Below are positions 12,780 through 29,512 of a stretch of 64,000 nt of DNA, in pieces; the first letter of the stretch is position 1; every line of letters begins with the position of its first letter. This DNA comes from an uncultured Actinomycetota bacterium (lineage in GTDB: Bacteria; Actinomycetota; Actinomycetes; CAVWCF01), in the NCBI GenBank assembly GCA_963753435.1, contig CAVWCF010000001.1:416001-480000 (forward strand). Reading direction: 5' to 3'. Both the position numbers and the translations under genes were made by a program. Below the pieces are notes generated by a model, which did not search any database, was not told where the DNA came from, and saw only the letters and a program-made list of their open reading frames with translations.

Positions 12780-12850
12780 GGTGGAGTGGCCGAGAGGCGA
12801 GGCAACGGCCTGCAAAGCCGTGTACACGGGTTCGAATCCCGTCTCCACCT
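12780..12850 (+). tRNA. tRNA-Cys (GCA)
   Basis: GGTGGAGTGGCCGAG...CGGC-CTGCAAA-GCCG...GGTTCGAATCCC...CTCCACCT. Confidence 0.97.
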
Positions 12851-12851
12851 C

Positions 12852-20264: not shown

Positions 20265-21149
20265 CTAGCCGGGCAGGATCGTCGTGGGCCCGGGGTTCGA
20301 GTCATTTTCGGGACCTGCCAGCGGCGCCTCGGGCTGGGGCGACGCCACGGGAGCCGCAACCGCCGGTACGAGAACGCCCTCCGCCACGGAGCCACGCCGG
20401 GATCTGGCAATCAAGAACGCGGCAACGCCCCCGAGCAGGAATGTGAGCGGAACCACCCCGAGGAACCAGGCAGCCCAGGGCGCCTCGAAGGGAAGCGATA
20501 CCGGCACGAGGCTTTCCGGCGACGCCTTGCCGACGGCTTCGAGTGTCTCCGTCTCACCCAAAGCCGGCGTCCAGGTGACGGTGTTGCCCTCGATGGTTCC
20601 GTTGGCCGAAACGACCTCACCGGGGAAGGTGACGCGGATCCGGACCTCCGCGCCGATCAGGGCGGAGGGGTCGAAGTCCTCAAGTCCGGGGAACTCGCTG
20701 GGGAAGTCTTCGGGGAGCTGCTCCTCGGGGAAGGTCCCGTCGGCCGGGGGTTCCTCGCCGTCTGCCCCCAGACCGCTGGTGGCGTCAAAGGCGCCGGACA
20801 CTCGGAAGACGTCGCCGTCGCGAACGATGTTGAGGGTCTCCCCCTCCGACGTCCCGGTGGAGAACTCCTCGATCGGCACCCCGGTGAACACCAGGCGGGT
20901 GCCGATGAAGCCGTCGGCGGCATAGGGCTCAACGTCGATGCTGCCGGCCGACGGCGTCTCCGGCGCCTCCGGCAACAAGTCCGACGAGTCGAATCCCGGC
21001 AATTGCGCGAACTCATCGGAGATCCCGAAGACGACCGAGCCATCGACGGTGTTGTCGCTGTTCAACTCGATGTCCGTGTCGAACTTGATACAACCCGTCA
21101 GCAAGAACGCCAAGGCCACGACCAGGCCCGCGGTCACGAATCTGCGCAT
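20265..21149 (-). CDS. LppM-family lipoprotein with C-terminal membrane anchor
   Basis: Lipobox LLTGC, VTFPGEVVSANG...GNTVTW, C-terminal hydrophobic helix; ATG 21149 after a purine-rich RBS. Confidence 0.8.
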   Translation of the reverse strand: MRRFVTAGLVVALAFLLTGCIKFDTDIELNSDNTVDGSVVFGISDEFAQLPGFDSSDLLPEAPETPSAGSIDVEPYAADGFIGTRLVFTGVPIEEFSTGTSEGETLNIVRDGDVFRVSGAFDATSGLGADGEEPPADGTFPEEQLPEDFPSEFPGLEDFDPSALIGAEVRIRVTFPGEVVSANGTIEGNTVTWTPALGETETLEAVGKASPESLVPVSLPFEAPWAAWFLGVVPLTFLLGGVAAFLIARSRRGSVAEGVLVPAVAAPVASPQPEAPLAGPENDSNPGPTTILPG

Positions 21150-21247
21150 CGACTGTCCCTTCCTCGGCTGGGAATTCGGTTCGCCCCCGACATTCTTGAC
21201 CCCGCCTACTCCGAACGGGCATGTGCAATTGCGAGGTAGTCGCAGCG

Positions 21248-21264
21248 GTTTCACATAATGGGAC
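21248..21264. promoter_or_regulatory. Imperfect palindrome GTTTCA-N5-TGGGAC overlapping a CATAAT -10-like element
   Basis: Read directly; GTYYCA-N5-TGRRAC symmetry upstream of the leader peptide. Confidence 0.4.
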
Positions 21265-21276
21265 GATCTGGACAGC

Positions 21277-21387
21277 ATGGTGAGACGGGGCGAACATCCG
21301 CTCGTGCTGCGCTCACTGTCCCTGGTCAGTCGACTCCACGTCGACCTGATGCGGATGTCTTGCGCCATGTGTCCCCCGGTCACCTGA
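21277..21387 (+). CDS. Putative cis-regulatory leader peptide (36 aa) of the sulfate assimilation operon
   Basis: Manual translation: MVRRGEHPLVLRSLSLVSRLHVDLMRMSCAMCPPVT*. Below the ORF track length cutoff. Confidence 0.75.
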   Translation: MVRRGEHPLVLRSLSLVSRLHVDLMRMSCAMCPPVT

Positions 21388-21474
21388 CCGCGCCTGACCA
21401 TCCCACCCGGGCGCGCACGATCGCGACCGGGATTCCCCGTCCAACCGATGCGCGTCCTGTCCTGAGGGGACAGC

Positions 21475-23160
21475 TTGAGCATCACCGAACGAACAGCCCC
21501 ACCCCGCCGCGGCGCGGCCAAAGGCCAGGGCCAGTGGGCACTTGGGCATCTGGAACCACTCAATCCCAATGAGCGCACCAAGCGCGACGACAGCGGTCTC
21601 AACGTGCGCGCCCGCATCGAGAACATCTACGCGCCCGGGGGGTTCGCCTCCATCGACCCGGCCGACCTGCGCGGCCGGTTCCGGTGGTGGGGCCTGTACA
21701 CGCAGCGCAAACCCGGCATCGACGGCGGCAAGACAGCCACCCTGGAGCCGGAAGAACTGGAGGATGAGTTCTTCATGCTCCGCGTCCGGACCGACGGGGG
21801 GCTGCTGAACCTGGAGCAACTGCGCGCGATTGCGGCCATCAGCAGCGAGTTCGGCCGCGAGACCGCGGACATCTCTGATCGACAGAACGTGCAACTGCAC
21901 TGGATCCGCGTCGAGGACGTACCGGAGATCTGGCGACGGCTGGAATCGGTAGGCCTAACCACCGAGGAGGCCTGCGGCGACACCCCCCGAGTGGTCCTGG
22001 GTTCGCCGGTTGCCGGGGTTGCCGCTGACGAGATCATCGACGGCACTCCCGCGATCTTGGCGATCCGGGAGAGATTCGTCGGCGACCAATCGCTGGCGAA
22101 TCTGCCGCGCAAGTTCAAGTCCGCAGTCTCCGGGTCACCGCACCAGGATGTGGCCCCAGAGATCAACGACATCTCGTTCGTCGGGGTGATCCACCCCGAC
22201 CTGGGCCCGGGATTCGACGTCTGGGTGGGCGGCGGGCTGTCCACCAACCCGCATCTGGCACAGCGATTGGGCGTCTTCGCCACCTTGGCCGAGGTACCGG
22301 AGATCTGGCACGGGGTGGCCAGCCTCTTCCGCGACTACGGCTATCGACGGCTGCGGCACCGGGCTCGGCTGAAGTTCCTGGTCGCGGACTGGGGGCCGGC
22401 GCGCTTCCGCGAGGTGCTGGAAACGGAGTACTTGAAGCGAACACTGACCGACGGTCCGGCCCCGCCGCCGCCCCCGACCGGTCGACGTGACCACGTCGGG
22501 ACCCACCCGCAACGAGACGGCCGCTTCTATGTGGGACTGGCCCCAGTGGTCGGACGCGTGTCGGGCCGAATCCTGCGCGACCTCGCCGACCTGGTCGAGG
22601 CCGTCGGCTCCAATCGGATCCGGTTGACCGTCGAGCAGAAGCTCGTGGTCCTGGACATCCCGGCCGAGCGCGTGGACGACTTCACTGCGGCGGCGGTTGC
22701 GCTGGGCTTCGAAGCCGGCTCGGCCAGCCCGTTCCGGCGCGGCACGATGGCGTGCACCGGTATCGAGTACTGCAAGTTGGCGATCGTCGAGACCAAGGGA
22801 ACTGCCCAGCGACTCGTAGCGACGTTGGAAGACAGGCTGCCGACGTTCGAGCGACCGCTGAGCATTCACGTGAATGGCTGCCCGAACTCGTGCGCGCGGA
22901 TTCAGACGGCCGACATCGGCCTCAAGGGCATGCTCGTGAGCGACGCCGACGGCAACCAGGCTGAAGGCTTCCAGGTCCACCTCGGCGGACGGCTGGGCCA
23001 GGAGGCGGCTTTCGGTCGGACCGTACGCGGGCTGAAGGTGACCGCCGCGGAGTTGCCGGACTATGTCGAGCGGGTAGTCACCCGGTACGAGAGCCAACGT
23101 CAAAGTGATCAGACGTTCTCCCAATGGGCCGTCCAGGCAGACGAGGCGGAACTTCGATGA
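21475..23160 (+). CDS. sirA: Ferredoxin-dependent sulfite/nitrite reductase
   Basis: RWWGLYTQR, LPRKFK, CTGIEYC and NGCPNSC siroheme/Fe-S ligands. Confidence 0.93.
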   Translation: MSITERTAPPRRGAAKGQGQWALGHLEPLNPNERTKRDDSGLNVRARIENIYAPGGFASIDPADLRGRFRWWGLYTQRKPGIDGGKTATLEPEELEDEFFMLRVRTDGGLLNLEQLRAIAAISSEFGRETADISDRQNVQLHWIRVEDVPEIWRRLESVGLTTEEACGDTPRVVLGSPVAGVAADEIIDGTPAILAIRERFVGDQSLANLPRKFKSAVSGSPHQDVAPEINDISFVGVIHPDLGPGFDVWVGGGLSTNPHLAQRLGVFATLAEVPEIWHGVASLFRDYGYRRLRHRARLKFLVADWGPARFREVLETEYLKRTLTDGPAPPPPPTGRRDHVGTHPQRDGRFYVGLAPVVGRVSGRILRDLADLVEAVGSNRIRLTVEQKLVVLDIPAERVDDFTAAAVALGFEAGSASPFRRGTMACTGIEYCKLAIVETKGTAQRLVATLEDRLPTFERPLSIHVNGCPNSCARIQTADIGLKGMLVSDADGNQAEGFQVHLGGRLGQEAAFGRTVRGLKVTAAELPDYVERVVTRYESQRQSDQTFSQWAVQADEAELR

Positions 23161-23852
23161 CCCGGACGGTTGCTGAGTTGCGCGACCTGGCGGCGGAAGC
23201 CAGCCGTCGCTTTGGCGACAACGACGTCGAAGCACTGCTGCGGTGGGCCGGCACCACCTTCGGAGCGCGACTAGTGCTGGCGTCCAGCATGGGTGACGAG
23301 GTGCTCGTCCACCTGGCCTCACAGGAAGTGCCCGGCATCGACGTGCTGTTCCTGGACACCGGTTATCACTTCCCCGAGACGCTCGGCACCCGCGACGCCG
23401 TAGCGGCCACGTTGCCCGTGCGTCTAGTGACCGTCGAGCCACGCCATAGCGTCGCCGCACAGGACGCCGAGCACGGGCCGCGACTGCACGAGCGGGATCC
23501 GGATCTTTGCTGCGCACTTCGAAAGGTGGAACCGCTCAACCGGGGTCTTTCCGGCTACGAGGCATGGATCACCGGGATGCGCCGGGAAGACGCACCGACC
23601 CGAAACGACATCGGCGTGGTCACCTTCGACGACAAGCGGGGCATGGTGAAGCTGAATCCCATCGCCGCCTGGACCGCCGAACAGGTCCGGGAATACGCCG
23701 ACACCCACGCGGTGCTGCTGAACCCGCTACGGCAGGCGGGCTACCCATCGATCGGATGTGCGCCCTGCACCAGACCGGTGGCCGAAGGTGCGGATCCGCG
23801 CTCCGGTCGCTGGGTCGGATCGGCCAAGACCGAATGCGGGTTGCACACATGA
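23157..23852 (+). CDS. cysH: APS/PAPS reductase (4Fe-4S type)
   Basis: LDTGYHF, CCALRK, SIGCAPC, ECGLH; ATGA overlap. Confidence 0.93.
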   Translation: MTRTVAELRDLAAEASRRFGDNDVEALLRWAGTTFGARLVLASSMGDEVLVHLASQEVPGIDVLFLDTGYHFPETLGTRDAVAATLPVRLVTVEPRHSVAAQDAEHGPRLHERDPDLCCALRKVEPLNRGLSGYEAWITGMRREDAPTRNDIGVVTFDDKRGMVKLNPIAAWTAEQVREYADTHAVLLNPLRQAGYPSIGCAPCTRPVAEGADPRSGRWVGSAKTECGLHT

Positions 23853-24796
23853 GCGCCGCGCCGCAACAGATCTCGGGTTTGGCTGCCCCGGAGGTAGCCG
23901 ACTACACGCTTTCGCCGCTGGACGCGCTGGAGTCCGAAGGCATCCACATATTCCGGGAGGTCGTCGGGCAGTTCGAGCGGCCAGTCCTGCTGTTCAGCGG
24001 CGGTAAGGACTCCATTGTGATGCTGCACCTGGCGCGCAAGGCCTTCTGGCCGGCACCGGTGCCGTTCCCCCTGATGCACGTGGACACCGGTCACAACTTC
24101 GACGAGGTGATCGAATACCGCGACCGCGTCGTAGCCCAGCACGGCCTGCGCCTGGTCGTGGCCAGCGTGCAGGAGGCCATCGACTCCGGTCGCGTACGGG
24201 AGCGCCCGGACGGGACCCGCAACCCGCTGCAAACGATCCCGCTGCTGGATGCGATCGCGACGCAGCGGTTCGACGCGGTCTTCGGTGGCGGCCGGCGTGA
24301 TGAGGAGAAGGCCCGGGCCAAGGAACGGGTGTTCAGTCTTCGCGACGAGTTCGGCCAGTGGGACCCCCGACGCCAACGACCTGAACTCTGGGACCTGTAC
24401 AACGGCCGCCACCGGCCGGGCGAGCACGTGCGGGTGTTCCCGTTGAGCAACTGGACCGAACTGGATGTCTGGCGCTACATCCAGCGCGAAGAGATCCCGT
24501 TGCCGTCGATCTACTTCGCGCACAGCCGAGAGGTGTTCCAGCGCGGCGGGATGTGGCTGACACCAGGCACTTGGGGCGAACCCAAGGACTCCGAACCAAC
24601 GGTCACCAGGACAGTGCGCTATCGAACCGTCGGGGACATGTCCTGCACCGGCGCCGTCGACTCCGACGCGGCCGATGTCGCAGCCGTGATCGCCGAAGTG
24701 GCAGCCAGCCGCCTCACCGAACGCGGAGCCACCAGGGCAGATGACCGGCTGACCGAGGCCGCCATGGAGGACCGCAAGCGCGAGGGGTACTTCTGA
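23849..24796 (+). CDS. cysD: Sulfate adenylyltransferase subunit 2
   Basis: FSGGKDS, RRDEEKARAKER, MEDRKREGYF. Confidence 0.95.
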   Translation: MSAAPQQISGLAAPEVADYTLSPLDALESEGIHIFREVVGQFERPVLLFSGGKDSIVMLHLARKAFWPAPVPFPLMHVDTGHNFDEVIEYRDRVVAQHGLRLVVASVQEAIDSGRVRERPDGTRNPLQTIPLLDAIATQRFDAVFGGGRRDEEKARAKERVFSLRDEFGQWDPRRQRPELWDLYNGRHRPGEHVRVFPLSNWTELDVWRYIQREEIPLPSIYFAHSREVFQRGGMWLTPGTWGEPKDSEPTVTRTVRYRTVGDMSCTGAVDSDAADVAAVIAEVAASRLTERGATRADDRLTEAAMEDRKREGYF

Positions 24797-26043
24797 TGTC
24801 GGGACTGCTGCGGCTGGCCACGGCCGGTTCCGTCGACGACGGCAAGAGCACGCTGGTGGGGCGACTCCTGCACGACACCAAGAGCATCCTTGCCGACCAG
24901 TACGACGCCATCGAGGCAGCCAGCCGCGCTCGCGGTGCGCAAGCCACCGACCTCGCCTTGCTGACTGACGGTCTCCGCGCCGAGCGTGAGCAGGGCATCA
25001 CCATTGACGTCGCGTACCGGTACTTCGCCACCGCGCGACGCTCGTTCGTCCTCGCCGACACCCCCGGGCATGTGCAGTACACGCGCAACATGGTGACCGG
25101 GGCTTCGACCGCCGAACTGGCGATCATCCTCGTCGATGCCCGCAACGGGATCGTTGAGCAGACCCGCCGCCATGCCGCAGTAGCTGCGCTGCTCGGCGTC
25201 CCCCACGTGGTCCTGGCCGTCAACAAGATGGACCTCGTCGGGTTCGACGAGTCGGTGTTCGAGCGCATCCGGACCGAGTTCACGTCGCTCGCTCAGTCCC
25301 TGGGAGTTCCGGACGCAACAGCGATCCCGCTGTCGGCACTCACCGGCGACAACGTGGTCACGGCATCAGAACGAACCCCCTGGTACACCGGACCCACCCT
25401 TCTGCAACACCTGGAAGAGGTCCCGGTGGAACTGGATCCAGCCACGGAGGCCTTCCGCTTCGGGGTGCAGACCGTCATCCGACCCAGGAACGCGCAGTAC
25501 CCCGACTATCGCGGCTACGCCGGGAGGGTCGCTTCCGGCGTGGTCCGGGTGGGCGATGAGGTGCTGGTCCAGCCATCCGGGCAGCGCAGCCGCATCGCCG
25601 CGATCGACGCCTTCGAGGCCGAACTGGTCTACGCACACGCCGGCCAATCGGTCACGCTGCGCCTCACCGACGAATTGGACGTGTCCCGCGGCGACCTGCT
25701 GGCCGATCCGGCCGAGCCGGCGACCGTGACGCACGACCTCACCGCCACCGTTTGCTGGCTGGCCGACAGCCCGAGCCAGCCGCGGGCCCGGGTCACGGTC
25801 ACGTCGGGGCCCCGGGCCGTCCGCGGCTTGCTGACCGACGTGCACGCCCGCCTCGACCTGGAGACGCTGAACGAGGCCGAAGCCGATTCGCTGCAACTCA
25901 ACGACATCGGCCGAGTGAGCCTGCGTCTGGCCGAACCGCTGGCCATCGACGACTACCGGCGGCACCGGCATACCGGGGCATTCCTGATCATCGACGAGTC
26001 CGATGGGACAACACTCGCGGCCGGGATGGTGCGCAATGGGTGA
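24796..26043 (+). CDS. cysN: Sulfate adenylyltransferase subunit 1 (no APS kinase domain)
   Basis: GSVDDGKST, EREQGITIDVAY, DTPGH, NKMD. Confidence 0.95.
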   Translation: MSGLLRLATAGSVDDGKSTLVGRLLHDTKSILADQYDAIEAASRARGAQATDLALLTDGLRAEREQGITIDVAYRYFATARRSFVLADTPGHVQYTRNMVTGASTAELAIILVDARNGIVEQTRRHAAVAALLGVPHVVLAVNKMDLVGFDESVFERIRTEFTSLAQSLGVPDATAIPLSALTGDNVVTASERTPWYTGPTLLQHLEEVPVELDPATEAFRFGVQTVIRPRNAQYPDYRGYAGRVASGVVRVGDEVLVQPSGQRSRIAAIDAFEAELVYAHAGQSVTLRLTDELDVSRGDLLADPAEPATVTHDLTATVCWLADSPSQPRARVTVTSGPRAVRGLLTDVHARLDLETLNEAEADSLQLNDIGRVSLRLAEPLAIDDYRRHRHTGAFLIIDESDGTTLAAGMVRNG

Positions 26044-26857
26044 GCGTCACGCCGACGGCGCCCACACCACAGCGGTCCTGGATCACCGGCCACACGACGA
26101 GGTCGTACTCCACGTGGATTCGGTGGTGCGCCGATACCCCGACGGCGGCGGTCGCTCGCTCGCGCTGGACGGGCTTAGTTTGGACGTGGCAGCCGGGGAG
26201 TTCCTTTGCATCGTCGGTCCCAGCGGCTGCGGCAAGTCGACCCTGTTGGACCTGCTTGCCGGCCATCAGATCCCCGACGCCGGGCACGTGGTCAGTCACG
26301 GAGTTGACGTAACCGGACCGGACCCGCGCCGCATGGTGGTTTTCCAGGAGCACGCGTTGTTCCCCTGGCTGTCGGTCATCCAGAACGTCGAGTTCGGACT
26401 GCGCGTTCGCGGCGACAGCCCGGACCGACGCCGACGCATTGCACTGGACTGGTTGGAGCGCGTCCATCTAGCCGACGTCGCCAACGCCCGAATCCATCAA
26501 CTATCCGGCGGCATGCGCCAACGCGTCGCCCTCGCGCGGGCCCTGGCGCTGCAGCCTGAGGTTCTGCTCATGGATGAGCCGTTCGCCGCCTTGGATGCCC
26601 AGACCCGGGACCAAATGCACGTAGAACTGCAGGAGTTGTGGGCTCAGTCCGGGACCACGATCGTTTTCGTCACCCACAACGTGCGGGAGGCCGTTCTCCT
26701 CGGCGACCGCGTGGTGGTGATGACCGGCAATCCGGGCCGAATCCGGGCCGTCTCGCACGTCCGGCTACCGCGTCCGCGTTCTTTGGAGGACCACTCCATT
26801 ACCGACCTGGCTCGACTGGTTGGTCGGTACCTGCGCGACACCGAGGTGCAGACATGA
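26036..26857 (+). CDS. ABC transporter ATP-binding protein (SsuB/TauB-like)
   Basis: GPSGCGKS, LSGGMRQR, LMDEPF. Confidence 0.9.
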   Translation: MGERHADGAHTTAVLDHRPHDEVVLHVDSVVRRYPDGGGRSLALDGLSLDVAAGEFLCIVGPSGCGKSTLLDLLAGHQIPDAGHVVSHGVDVTGPDPRRMVVFQEHALFPWLSVIQNVEFGLRVRGDSPDRRRRIALDWLERVHLADVANARIHQLSGGMRQRVALARALALQPEVLLMDEPFAALDAQTRDQMHVELQELWAQSGTTIVFVTHNVREAVLLGDRVVVMTGNPGRIRAVSHVRLPRPRSLEDHSITDLARLVGRYLRDTEVQT

Positions 26858-27651
26858 CCTCCCTGCAGGCGGCCGCAGCACCAACAGCTCGCACGGATCG
26901 CCCCAGCTCTTGGGTGTTGCCGCCTTTGGTAGCCGGAGCCGTGGGCGTGGGCGCGTGGGCCCTCTGGGCTGTCGCCAACCCGGCTCTGCCCGGCCCGCTC
27001 ACCACCGCGGAAACGACCTGGCAGTTGCTCAGTAGCGGCGGCCTGGTTCCGGTGGTCGCCAGAACCGTGGGGCTCCTGCTTCTCGGTTTCGTGGGCTCGT
27101 TGGCGTTAGGCGTCTTCACCGGCCTTGCACTCGGGGCCTGGCCCCTGCTTGATCGGGCCCTGTCGCCGTACTTGATCGGGCTGCAGTCGCTGCCGAACGC
27201 AGTATTGGTGCCGCTGGGCCTGCTCCTAGCCGGCCCCTCCATTACGACGGTGGTGGCGTTGACCATCGTTGGCGCCACGCCATCAATCGCAATGGGCACT
27301 CGCGACTCCGTGAAAACCATCCCGCCGCTGCTGATCCGCGCGGGTCGGACCATGGGTGCGCGCGGCACAACGCTGGTCCGCACGGTGATCCTGCCCGCGG
27401 CCATGCCGGGTGTCGTCGACTCCCTGCAGTACGGCTGGGCGTTCGCGTTCCGGGCCGTCGTCGCCGCCGAGATCATCATCGGGACCGGGCTGGGCGCATT
27501 CCTTCGCGACGCCACGAGCGCGCAACGCAGCGACGAGGTACTTGCCGTGATCCTGGTGGTGCTGGTCCTGGGCATCCTGGTGGACCGGCTCGGGTTCGCG
27601 CAGATCCGGGCCAGGCTGCGCGCCGACCGCGGGCTGACGGGATCGGCATGA
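26854..27651 (+). CDS. ABC transporter permease (SsuC/TauC-like)
   Basis: Multiple TM helices; RAGRTMGA EAA-loop; ILPAAMP. Confidence 0.88.
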   Translation: MTSLQAAAAPTARTDRPSSWVLPPLVAGAVGVGAWALWAVANPALPGPLTTAETTWQLLSSGGLVPVVARTVGLLLLGFVGSLALGVFTGLALGAWPLLDRALSPYLIGLQSLPNAVLVPLGLLLAGPSITTVVALTIVGATPSIAMGTRDSVKTIPPLLIRAGRTMGARGTTLVRTVILPAAMPGVVDSLQYGWAFAFRAVVAAEIIIGTGLGAFLRDATSAQRSDEVLAVILVVLVLGILVDRLGFAQIRARLRADRGLTGSA

Positions 27652-28826
27652 CCTACCCGCTTTTCCTGCAGATGTCCGGGCGCCGTTGCGTCGTGGTCGG
27701 CGGTGGCCCGGTCGCCGCTCGGCGTGCGCGGGCGCTGCTCGAGGCCGGTGCTTCGGTGCACGTCGTCGCGCCTTGGGCGATCGAGGACATCCGCGACGCC
27801 GCCGCGGGCGGAATCCTGACTTGGGCCCAACGTGAGTACGAGCCGAAAGACTTGGCCGACACCTGGCTGGTGCACACCGCAACCGGGGACCAGGAGGTGG
27901 ACTCGGCCGTGGCCGCGGACGCCGAGAACGCACGGATTTGGTGCGTGCGCGCTGACGATCATGACCGGAGTGCCGCCTGGGCTCCCGCAGTGCACCGCAG
28001 TGGACCCGTCGTTGTTGCGGTCGCGTCGACGGACCCGAAGCGGTCGGTTGAGTTGCGAAACGCGATCGCCCTGCTGCTGGACACCGGTGCACTGCCCCGG
28101 CGCCACCGCCGGCCGGGACCCGGGCGGGTCTCGTTGGTCGGCGGCGGCCCTGGCGACGAGGGGCTGATCACCGTGCGCGGCCGGCAGCTGCTGGCTGAAG
28201 CGGACGTGGTCGTGGTGGATCGCCTCGCGCCCCAGCGACTGTTGGCCACCTTGGGCGACGACGTGGAGGTCATCGACGCGGGTAAGGCGCCGCACGCGCA
28301 CACGCTCACGCAGGACCAGATCAACGACCTCCTCATCAGCCGCGCGCGGGCCGGCAAGCAAGTCGTGCGGCTGAAGGGCGGTGACCCGTTCGTGCTGGGC
28401 CGAGGCGGCGAAGAGGCACTGGCGTGCCTAGGAGCGGGGGTTCCAGTAGAGGTCGTTCCGGGCGTCACCAGCGCCGTGGCGGTGCCGGCTGCGGCCGGAA
28501 TCCCCGTGACCCACCGCGGGCTGTCCCGCGGATTCGCTTTGGTGTCCGGCCACGAGGGCGATGTCGACTGGGCCGGACTGCGCGGCGCCGACACGCTGAT
28601 CGTGCTGATGGGAGTGGCTCGGCTGCCCCAGACCTGCGCCGCCCTGTTGGCCGCTGGACGAGACCCCAGCACGCCGGTGGCGGTGATCGAACGCGGCACC
28701 ACCCCACAACAGCGGACTACAACGGCGACGTTGACCGACATCCCCGAAGTCGCGGCCGCGGCGGGGGTGCAAGCGCCGGCGATCATCATCGTCGGTGATG
28801 TCGCTGCCCTTACTGTCTTCGGGTGA
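27648..28826 (+). CDS. cysG: Siroheme synthase / uroporphyrinogen-III C-methyltransferase
   Basis: N-terminal VVVGGGPVA Rossmann domain; VGGGPGD, RLKGGDP, VPGVTS. Confidence 0.88.
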   Translation: MTYPLFLQMSGRRCVVVGGGPVAARRARALLEAGASVHVVAPWAIEDIRDAAAGGILTWAQREYEPKDLADTWLVHTATGDQEVDSAVAADAENARIWCVRADDHDRSAAWAPAVHRSGPVVVAVASTDPKRSVELRNAIALLLDTGALPRRHRRPGPGRVSLVGGGPGDEGLITVRGRQLLAEADVVVVDRLAPQRLLATLGDDVEVIDAGKAPHAHTLTQDQINDLLISRARAGKQVVRLKGGDPFVLGRGGEEALACLGAGVPVEVVPGVTSAVAVPAAAGIPVTHRGLSRGFALVSGHEGDVDWAGLRGADTLIVLMGVARLPQTCAALLAAGRDPSTPVAVIERGTTPQQRTTTATLTDIPEVAAAAGVQAPAIIIVGDVAALTVFG

Positions 28827-29512
28827 TGAACGGCCTGCTCCTGGTCGGGCATGGGTCCGCCGACCCACGTCACGCCGCCGCCCTGCAGCGGTTGACCGAC
28901 CGGGTTCGTTCGCTGACAGCCAACCCCACGGAACTGGGCTTCCTCGAACACAACCAGCCCGCAGCCGCCGGGGCGGCTATGCAGTTGCGTCTTGCCGGCG
29001 CGGACGCCCTGATCCTGGTTCCGCTGCTGCTCAGCGACGGATTTCACGCTCGCGCCGACGTCCCCCAAGCCGCAGCGTTGGCCTCGCGTGCAAGCGGCCT
29101 ACCGGTAGCGGTGGCCGCCGCACTGGGACCGCACCAACTGATCGCAGCCGCATGCCGCCAGCGAGTGTCCGACGAGATCGGCAGCGGTCGGCTGCTGCTG
29201 GCGCAACCGGGCGAAGCAGACAGCGCCGCCGGCGAACTGGCCGAGTCTGTGGCCCGGGACCTGGCGGTGCCGGTGACACACGGTCTTGAAGCACTGGAGC
29301 ATGAACTTGGCCACGCCACCGCGGACACCGTGGTCATCCGGCTGCTGCTGGCCGACGGCGTACTCGCAGATCGCATGGGAGCCATCTGTCGGGCCGCCGG
29401 GGTGGACAGCATCGGAGTGCTCGCGGACGCGCCGGCCCTGGCGGATCTGGTGCTGCTGCGTGCCGCAGAGGCAGCAGTGCCAGGATCAGAGGGTGCACCG
29501 CCTGCATCCTGA
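28826..29512 (+). CDS. Sirohydrochlorin chelatase (SirB/CbiX family)
   Basis: VGHGS, GFLE, VPLLLSDGFH. Confidence 0.85.
   Translation: MNGLLLVGHGSADPRHAAALQRLTDRVRSLTANPTELGFLEHNQPAAAGAAMQLRLAGADALILVPLLLSDGFHARADVPQAAALASRASGLPVAVAAALGPHQLIAAACRQRVSDEIGSGRLLLAQPGEADSAAGELAESVARDLAVPVTHGLEALEHELGHATADTVVIRLLLADGVLADRMGAICRAAGVDSIGVLADAPALADLVLLRAAEAAVPGSEGAPPAS

What the first reader, a model, noticed from the sequence alone, without database searches (positions are those of the whole stretch)
21270..21477. Unannotated Cys/Met leader peptide with alternative RBS-sequestering pairings: candidate sulfur-sensing attenuator
Seen: a 36-aa ORF (21277-21387) ending LVSRLHVDLMRMSCAMC, with 2 Cys and 3 Met clustered at the C-terminus, 87 nt before sirA. 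The sirA RBS sits in a hairpin, CTGTCC(21457-62)-TGAGG-GGACAG(21468-73). The same GGACAG precedes the leader start (21270-75) and a second CTGTCCC lies inside the leader (21316-22), allowing mutually exclusive pairings. Known: poly-Cys leader ORFs attenuate cys genes in mycobacteria, and a short R.HVDL.R...A.C peptide pattern recurs upstream of actinobacterial sulfur genes as a 'putative leader peptide' with, to my knowledge, no demonstrated mechanism. Inference: a sequence-specific arrest peptide sensing Cys (or Cys-tRNA) gates the whole assimilation operon.
Basis: partly seen in the sequence, partly recalled or inferred. Interest (0 to 1): 0.78.

Follow-up and report, generated by a model that had tools for sequence, protein, structure and literature searches.

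The report
Cysteine-sensing leader peptide before sulfite reductase
A tiny conserved gene sits in front of the sulfate-assimilation operon and belongs to a known family of actinobacterial leader peptides; it likely lets a stalled ribosome switch the operon on when cysteine runs short, and the family's fixed Arg/Asp residues and rare UGU codon hint, untested, that the peptide itself would amplify a pause at a single cysteine codon.

Summary
The short ORF before sirA-cysH-cysD-cysN is real and conserved, but not a new kind. It is a divergent member of NCBIfam NF042934 (24 bits, cut-off 27), in the same position as mycobacterial Ms4527A/Rv2391A; a second copy in this genome passes the cut-off for Ms5788A, a dissected cysteine attenuator. 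The scan noted a relative on other DNA before (e1-5226406). In 114 non-redundant leaders Arg5 and Asp9 are invariant under free synonymous change; Cys18 (112 of 114) is UGU in 107, against about 10% in sirA; 65 have one Cys only. The post-stop RNA has competing helices 1:2 and 2:3, supported by partner-swap tests. Best reading: Cys-tRNA shortage stalls the ribosome at the UGU, helped by the nascent peptide, and relieves sequestration of the sirA start. Folding did not show a Cys-stalled ribosome flipping the switch here; stall site and output (SD versus Rho) remain open.

The parts
21249..21286 (.). Promoter-overlapping DNA repeats GGGAC/TGGAC/GAGAC at -44, -35 and -22 from GTG 21304; NdgR-operator-like (weak here: best 3 mismatches to the published motif, at 21271-85 minus strand)
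   Evidence: homolog peaks at -45/-36/-24/-67; motif within 1 mismatch in 20 of 109 promoters vs 0 of 108 CDS controls and 1 of 545 shuffles
21269..21274 (+).
   Evidence: sequence; 17-nt spacer to the -10; peak at -35..-37 in homologs; inferred
21292..21297 (+). Probable -10 element GAACAT, 6 nt before the GTG
   Evidence: L067 has TAGCGT in the same place; inferred
21277..21387 (+).
   Evidence: NF042934 23.4 bits
21304..21387 (+). Probable leaderless leader ORF, 27 aa: R10 (21331), D14 (21343), C23 = UGU (21370-72); these are family columns R5, D9, C18
   Evidence: (24.1 bits)
21311..21323 (+). Copy-specific anti-SD in the leader 5' end; predicted to pair with 21466-80
   Evidence: p 0.76-0.98; not a clear family-wide pairing
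21375..21396 (+). Segment 1: 5' arm of the post-Cys/stop hairpin (CCCGGTC 21375-81, stop, CGCGCCTG 21389-96)
   Evidence: 1:2 swap test
21408..21431 (+). Segment 2 (CGGGCGCGCA 21408-17) and lower-stem arm GACCGGG 21425-31; pairs with segment 1 or segment 3
21447..21463 (+). Segment 3 (TGCGCGTCC 21449-57) plus anti-SD CTGTCCT 21457-63; 5' arm of the hairpin enclosing the SD and start codon
21464..21483 (+). Segment 4: sirA SD GAGGGG, TTG start (21475) and GCATC 21479-83
21475..29512 (+). Regulated operon: sirA (NIR_SIR), cysH, cysD, cysN, ABC ATPase, ABC permease, cysG, CbiX-family chelatase

Best explanation
This short ORF before the sirA operon is a member of the actinobacterial R-x-x-[VI]-D leader-peptide family and is likely a leaderless, cysteine-responsive ribosome attenuator that would turn sirA translation on when Cys-tRNA is scarce. 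Shown: the ORF, its conservation at amino-acid level, its fixed UGU Cys codon and its link to sulfur genes. Inferred steps: transcription and translation start together at GTG 21304; when Cys-tRNA is low the ribosome waits at UGU 21370 (wobble-read by the single tRNA-Cys GCA), with Arg10 and Asp14 lying 12 and 8 residues back in the exit tunnel and lengthening the pause; the waiting ribosome and those queued behind it weaken the post-stop hairpin 1:2 and cover the 5' anti-SD; segment 2 then captures segment 3, which strips the outer stem from the hairpin over the sirA SD and start; downstream genes follow by polarity. With cysteine plentiful the ribosome leaves, 1:2 and 3:4 form and sirA is off. 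Odds by step: Cys-responsive attenuator 0.85; peptide contributes to the pause 0.6; output mainly by SD/start occlusion 0.55.
For: Family link: window 24.1 bits to NF042934; this genome's second copy (L001) passes NF042933 Ms5788A (52.3 vs 45); 5 of 5 mycobacterial-type sirA leaders tested pass NF042936 Ms4527A; the published Rv0815A and Rv2391A peptides carry the same L..R..[VI]DL.R core, are listed as leaderless and have UGU at the C18 column. Ms5788A works by SD release on ribosome stalling, and Ms4527 protein is cysteine-repressed. Position: leader found before 99 of 110 sirA loci (HMM partly trained on them; 0 of 109 in-gene controls) and 64 of 80 further loci. Downstream genes: 33 of 41 tested are sulfur-linked if DUF4395 is counted. 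Selection: R5 114/114 over five codons, D9 114/114, Ser15 by both AGY and TCG; C18 112/114, UGU 107/112 vs 25/81 at other leader Cys and 28/293 in sirA; 65/114 have one Cys. TnaC W12/D16 lie 12 and 8 residues from P-site P24, at the constriction. Natural swap: four sirA loci (three named Cellulomonas, one MAG) replace the motif by a Cys run, yet keep the final UGU and the same post-stop GGGCGCGCGGTC hairpin. RNA: 2:3 own partner better than swapped in 48/62 (t -5.3; 29/38 and 19/24 in the two sets), 1:2 in 37/62 (t -2.6); RNAalifold picks only 2:3 in 22 preselected loci; window 21370-495 folds as 1:2 plus 3:4, z -2.37; removing segment 1 lowers SD opening cost from 12.8 to 8.4 kcal/mol.
Against: In equilibrium folding a ribosome with UGU 21370 in the A site (3' edge +12 to +16) does not flip the window's switch: opening cost 15.0 free, 12.8-15.0 stalled at Cys, and it falls to 9.3 only two codons further on. 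Across 68 loci the change is a gradient (9.9 free, 8.0 Cys, 7.6 stop; lower by more than 1 kcal/mol in 36, higher in 15); 2:3 beats 1:2 in 15 of 33 free and 14-19 of 33 stalled. The 3:4 pairing has no family-wide support (30/62, t -0.7). Motif-anchored covariation was weak in the first set (51/5000 swaps) and absent in the second. The window scores under the family cut-off. Invariance of R/D/C is partly enforced by HMM selection, and loci are related, so the t values overstate. No expression, TSS or ribosome data exist for this copy.
Confidence: 0.5

Rival explanations
1. Same Cys sensor, but the output is Rho-dependent transcription termination: the 1:2 versus 2:3 switch and the ribosome hide or expose a C-rich rut region in the spacer.
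For: No intrinsic terminator in the region; the first 20 nt after the stop are 50% C, 24% G in 76 leaders; 1:2 and 2:3 are supported but 3:4 is not; Rho was proposed for actinobacterial cys leaders (PMC1262725, which itself calls the prediction weak).
Against: The dissected member Ms5788A showed no termination within the leader; the C excess is modest against the rest of the spacer (42% C); the window has a strong hairpin over SD and start.
Confidence: 0.2
2. TnaC-like: the peptide arrests the ribosome after Cys incorporation or at the stop codon, in response to a free ligand or thiol state, and the ribosome there covers segment 1.
For: Folding flips only when the masked edge reaches about 21390, i.e. 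A site two or more codons past Cys or at the stop; R/D spacing resembles TnaC.
Against: The motif is fixed relative to Cys18, not to the stop (mostly 2-8 codons away); UGU preference points to decoding; poly-Cys replacements keep the same RNA.
Confidence: 0.15
3. Plain hungry-codon attenuator: only the Cys codon(s) and RNA matter; Arg/Asp conservation reflects an RNA hairpin in the ORF or a separate role of the peptide.
For: Four residual Cys codons sufficed in Ms5788A; the window's ORF can form a GUCGAC hairpin over the R-L-H-V-D codons.
Against: Third positions of R5 are near-random (1.89 bits) and Leu, Arg and Ser use disjoint codon families; 65 of 114 have one Cys only.
Confidence: 0.1
4. 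One reading: a 36-aa SD-led Cys/Met sensor toggling the two GGACAG and two CTGTCC sites.
For: All four sites exist; ATG 21277 is in frame; CATAAT 21254-59 is a good -10; 21316-23 pairs with the SD in folding.
Against: Homologs are leaderless; upstream ATG not conserved in frame in the most similar promoters; Met absent from 56 of 114 tails; no clear family-wide ORF:SD pairing; both CTGTCC sites occlude the same SD, so swapping them does not open it.
Confidence: 0.05

Closest known systems
Ms4527A (M. smegmatis) / Rv2391A (M. tuberculosis), NCBIfam NF042936; bioRxiv 10.1101/834739, PMC13096801 Suppl. Table 1
   Same: Same position before sirA; same LV.R.H[VI]D..R core and UGU Cys at the same column; leaderless
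   Different: Window scores 15.8 vs cut-off 45; Cys codons are 2 and not consecutive; mechanism of Ms4527A itself not dissected
Ms5788A / Rv0815A, NCBIfam NF042933
   Same: Shares the L..R..VDL.R...C core; translational attenuation demonstrated; this genome's second copy passes its cut-off
   Different: Poly-Cys tract pairing directly with the SD region; here one conserved UGU and a post-stop 1:2/2:3 relay; target is a small membrane protein plus cysA2 rather than sirA
NCBIfam NF042934 cis_reg_atten, 'putative leader peptide'
   Same: Best match, model positions 2-19, E 2e-5
   Different: 24.1 bits, under the 27-bit cut-off
E. coli TnaC (PMC10941005)
   Same: Two invariant residues, one an Asp, 12 and 8 residues from the P site
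   Different: No sequence kinship tested or claimed; TnaC senses free Trp, stalls at the stop and acts through Rho
NdgR (IclR family) operator of S. coelicolor (PMC4340878)
   Same: Motif enriched in the family's promoters; NdgR binds before cysIHCDN and cysA; an IclR gene divergent from leuC is present in this genome
   Different: Only a 3-mismatch site in the window; binding untested

Membership tests
NF042934 cis_reg_atten | HMM score at or above 27 bits | tested here: not met
   23.4 bits (36 aa), 24.1 bits (27 aa); so filed as a divergent homolog, not a formal member
NF042934 cis_reg_atten | Core L..R..[VI]D..R.....C | tested here: met
   All columns present; 31.9 bits with an HMM built without this peptide
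Ms4527A family (NF042936) | HMM score at or above 45 bits | tested here: not met
   15.8 bits
Mycobacterial Cys-ribulon attenuators | Short ORF first in a cysteine/sulfur operon | tested here: met
Mycobacterial Cys-ribulon attenuators | At least two consecutive Cys codons | tested here: not met
   CAMC; two separated Cys
Mycobacterial Cys-ribulon attenuators | Leaderless transcript | tested here: inconclusive
   Promoter geometry and homologs fit; no TSS data
Mycobacterial Cys-ribulon attenuators | Stalled ribosome frees the downstream SD | tested here: inconclusive
   Competing helices present, but modelled Cys stall does not flip them
Mycobacterial Cys-ribulon attenuators | Cysteine-responsive expression needing leader translation | not testable with these tools
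   needs reporters
Ribosome arrest peptides (TnaC type) | Residue-level conservation at fixed distance from the stall site | tested here: met
   R5, D9 invariant, fixed to C18
Ribosome arrest peptides (TnaC type) | Sequence-dependent arrest shown by toeprint or structure | not testable with these tools
   no data
Classical transcription attenuator (trp type) | Intrinsic terminator with U tract | tested here: not met
   0 found in 21050-21600
Rfam riboswitch or cis element | Covariance-model match | tested here: not met
   No match over the leader at E up to 5

The most novel reading that the evidence does not exclude
The family is a class-wide, Cys-tRNA-dependent arrest peptide: invariant Arg and Asp at the tunnel constriction turn one wobble-read UGU codon into a sensor, replacing the amino-acid runs of classical attenuators. 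The mycobacterial 'polycysteine' attenuators Ms5788A and Ms4527A would then be Cys-expanded members of it, and it would run a sulfur regulon (sirA, cysH, cysC, rhodanese, sulfonate uptake, siroheme, perhaps Fe-S enzymes) across Actinomycetia, layered on NdgR control.
Probability: 0.35. Interest if true: 0.7.

Novelty: new member of a known kind. Interest (0 to 1): 0.4.

Why it matters
The locus itself is one more copy of a catalogued leader family with experimentally studied mycobacterial relatives. What the comparison adds is testable: most members have one Cys, nearly always the rare codon UGU, at a fixed distance from invariant Arg and Asp. If the peptide amplifies the pause, single-codon amino-acid sensing by a nascent chain would be a mode of attenuation that I did not find described for cysteine in six paper searches, though Canestrari et al. 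remark that conserved non-Cys residues might contact the ribosome. It would also explain how Streptomyces and other Actinomycetia control sulfate assimilation after transcription initiation.

Tried and rejected
Rfam: nothing over the leader. Sigma-70 promoter and terminator scan: 0 and 0; its consensus is too strict for these promoters. Fold of 21255-21500: z -1.35, not special. Idea that the Cys codon pairs with the SD (TGTCCCC:GGGGACA, good in this copy): no family signal, mean z -0.1 in 44 sirA loci and none; the third base of UGU has no consistent partner region in 101 folds, so RNA pairing was not found to explain UGU (not a strict exclusion). Fixed-window helix test against shuffles: weak (mean z about -0.5). 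Motif-anchored covariation did not replicate. RNA runs: 5 estuary metatranscriptomes hold at most 0.21 of the words; contigs of 90-99% identity cover 21344-21556 (X1, X2; one sample) and 21329-21564 (X3), bridging leader and sirA start, and none covers 21224-21304; contigs show neither a start, a strand nor a single transcript, so this is not used as evidence. G001 and G002, the only same-family genomes, gave no sirA match with this query, so no close ortholog was available. Genome-wide NdgR motif scan gave 68 sites within 1 mismatch, none at this promoter; they were not mapped to genes. Two papers were not held (D'Halluin 2023; the journal version of Canestrari 2020) and one supplement was unreadable. 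No structure prediction or protein-database search was run.

Full report
What is there. It lies 87 nt before an operon for sulfate assimilation: sirA, cysH, cysD, cysN, an ABC ATPase and permease, cysG and a CbiX-family chelatase. Rfam gives nothing over it and there is no intrinsic terminator. The peptide matches NCBIfam NF042934 'putative leader peptide' at 23.4-24.1 bits, under the cut-off of 27. The genome holds a second copy over the cut-off (L001), before a small protein resembling the DUF4395 proteins of other loci.

Distribution. NF042934 passes its cut-off in 29 of 41 genomes of the class and in 0 of 14 control genomes. I gathered sirA loci in two rounds. Round one: 99 of 110, the window included, have the leader by an HMM partly trained on them, against 0 of 109 in-gene controls; of the 11 misses 2 are truncated, 3 have it on the opposite strand only, 5 have a poly-Cys ORF and 1 has nothing. 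Round two, 80 of the 150 matches fetched: 64 have it, 9 on the opposite strand only, 2 poly-Cys, 5 nothing; a few of these repeat round-one contigs, and 38 remained new after removing near-duplicates. For genes behind NF042934 hits I scanned 41 of the 59 ORFs called (left out: those already recognised as sirA or cysC, one truncated, and those called in a doubtful frame): 14 DUF4395, 8 rhodanese, 5 PAPS reductase, 2 NMT1-type binding proteins, and one each of sirA, APS kinase, CbiX and a Cys/Met PLP enzyme make 33; six others and two blanks make up the rest; one of those six is SsuC-like in another frame. That DUF4395 equals Ms5788 is my inference.

Selection on the peptide. In 114 leaders under 90% identical column 5 is Arg in all, spread over CGG 47, CGC 26, CGT 22, CGA 18, AGG 1; column 9 is Asp in all; Leu2, Arg12 and Ser15 use disjoint codon families. 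Column 18 is Cys in 112, and 107 of those are UGU, against 25 of 81 for other Cys codons of the leaders, 28 of 293 in the sirA genes and roughly 17% genome-wide; the genome has one tRNA-Cys, anticodon GCA. The pattern held within round two alone (R 50/50, D 50/50, C 49/50, UGU 47). Sixty-five leaders have a single Cys; 56 have no Met in the tail. HMM selection favours R, D and C, so their invariance is somewhat inflated; it cannot produce the codon choice. With UGU in the A site, Arg and Asp are 12 and 8 residues from the P site, the spacing of TnaC W12 and D16 from P24: an analogy, not homology. Four sirA loci have a Cys run in place of the motif but keep a final UGU five codons before the stop and the same post-stop hairpin, which suggests that motif-plus-one-Cys and poly-Cys are interchangeable inputs to one RNA switch.

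Start site. Taking the first in-frame ATG/GTG without regard to promoters, 88 of 109 have A..T at the -10 distance (background 205 of 3438) and 9 of 109 an SD-like word. In the window GTG 21304 follows TGGACA-N17-GAACAT-N6. GGAC/GAGAC words peak at -45, -36, -24 and -67 in homologs and fall at -44, -35 and -22 here. The published NdgR motif occurs within one mismatch in 20 of 109 promoters, 0 of 108 coding controls and 1 of 545 shuffles; the window's best site has three mismatches. An IclR gene divergent from a leuC-like gene, the arrangement of ndgR, is present (leuC recognised by me from its N-terminus). L067 and L064 support this, but 4 of the other 8 loci with the element keep an open in-frame start there, and CATAAT 21254 is a rival -10.

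RNA. The 3' part of the window leader folds as hairpin 1:2 plus a hairpin over SD and start (z -2.37, 3 of 200 shuffles). Segment 2 can instead pair nine bases with segment 3, which removes the outer stem and lowers the cost of opening the SD from 12.8 to 8.4 kcal/mol. In 62 sirA leaders with spacers of at least 85 nt, 2:3 is better with the own partner than with swapped partners in 48 and than shuffles in 49, in both rounds; 1:2 in 37 and 42; 3:4 and four control pairings show nothing clear. RNAalifold on 22 loci preselected for segment 2 returns only 2:3, two of six pairs with compensatory change. Against: motif-anchored covariation did not replicate; a modelled stall at UGU does not flip the window's switch and needs an edge near 21390; family averages shift only gradually. 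Related loci are not independent, so t values overstate.

What is known. Canestrari et al. (bioRxiv 10.1101/834739; parts 1-4 of 6 read, figures and supplements not visible) dissected Ms5788A as a translational attenuator and found Ms4527 repressed by cysteine. PMC13096801 (passages and a supplement search) lists Rv0815A and Rv2391A as leaderless Cys attenuators, and their printed peptides carry this family's core and a UGU at column 18. NCBIfam agrees: L001 passes Ms5788A and five mycobacterial-type sirA leaders pass Ms4527A. Passages only were read of PMC4340878, PMC1262725, PMC13236596, PMC8079986, PMC10941005, PMC9094748 and PMC11109978. The S. lividans reannotation lists eight leader peptides, none of this family. 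The logos and Table S3 of Canestrari et al., which I could not see, may already show the shared core; the text notes conserved non-Cys residues and suggests ribosome contact. I found no paper on single-Cys members, the UGU bias or the 1:2/2:3 helices, in a library lacking most subscription journals.

Verdict. New member of a known kind: it works like the mycobacterial Cys attenuators and is homologous to them, though under the formal cut-offs and without consecutive Cys. Interest 0.4, carried by the testable single-UGU arrest-peptide reading (probability 0.35).

Noticed in passing
L001 (G000:C1:1597675-1597728): Second copy of the family in this genome, passing the Ms5788A cut-off; CCTGACG at its stop can pair with CGTCAGG at the next gene's SD, a pairing seen by eye in several DUF4395-class loci (L005, L007, L010, L026, L029), where modelled Cys stalls do lower SD opening cost in L001, L005, L026 and L029.
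   Followed up: partly
L078, L093, L102, L120 (about 1283-1430): Poly-Cys leaders in the sirA position that keep the final UGU and the same post-stop hairpin as the R/D-motif leaders.
   Followed up: partly
L024, L162, L167, L168, L017, L163, L028: The leader also precedes a 2-oxoacid:ferredoxin oxidoreductase alpha subunit, an OmpR-type regulator, a beta-carbonic anhydrase, an SCO4226-like protein, a ubiquitin-like sulfur carrier, an Opp-type permease and a dicarboxylate/amino-acid symporter: possible wider sulfur or Fe-S regulon.
   Followed up: no
L008, L014, L016, L048, L053, L137, L197, L226, L228, L238: Two leaders back to back on opposite strands around a divergent promoter region between sirA and another gene, where identified cysH, cysC or cbiX; in 12 other sirA loci only the opposite-strand leader was found.
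   Followed up: no
window 12780-12851 (G000:C1:428780-428851): The genome's only detected tRNA-Cys (GCA) gene lies about 8.5 kb upstream of the operon.
   Followed up: no
window 26042-27651: ABC ATPase and permease of sulfonate/nitrate type inside the operon with no binding-protein gene beside them; no APS kinase gene was seen among the operon ORFs scanned.
   Followed up: no
window 20265-21149 minus strand: Divergent LppM-domain lipoprotein gene sharing the intergenic region.
   Followed up: no
L252 (G000:C1:661088-664543): IclR-family gene divergent from a leuC-like gene, the ndgR arrangement.
   Followed up: partly
window 21399: A C-to-G difference in estuary RNA contigs (X1, X2) falls in the loop of hairpin 1:2; no other difference is listed for the spacer.
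   Followed up: no
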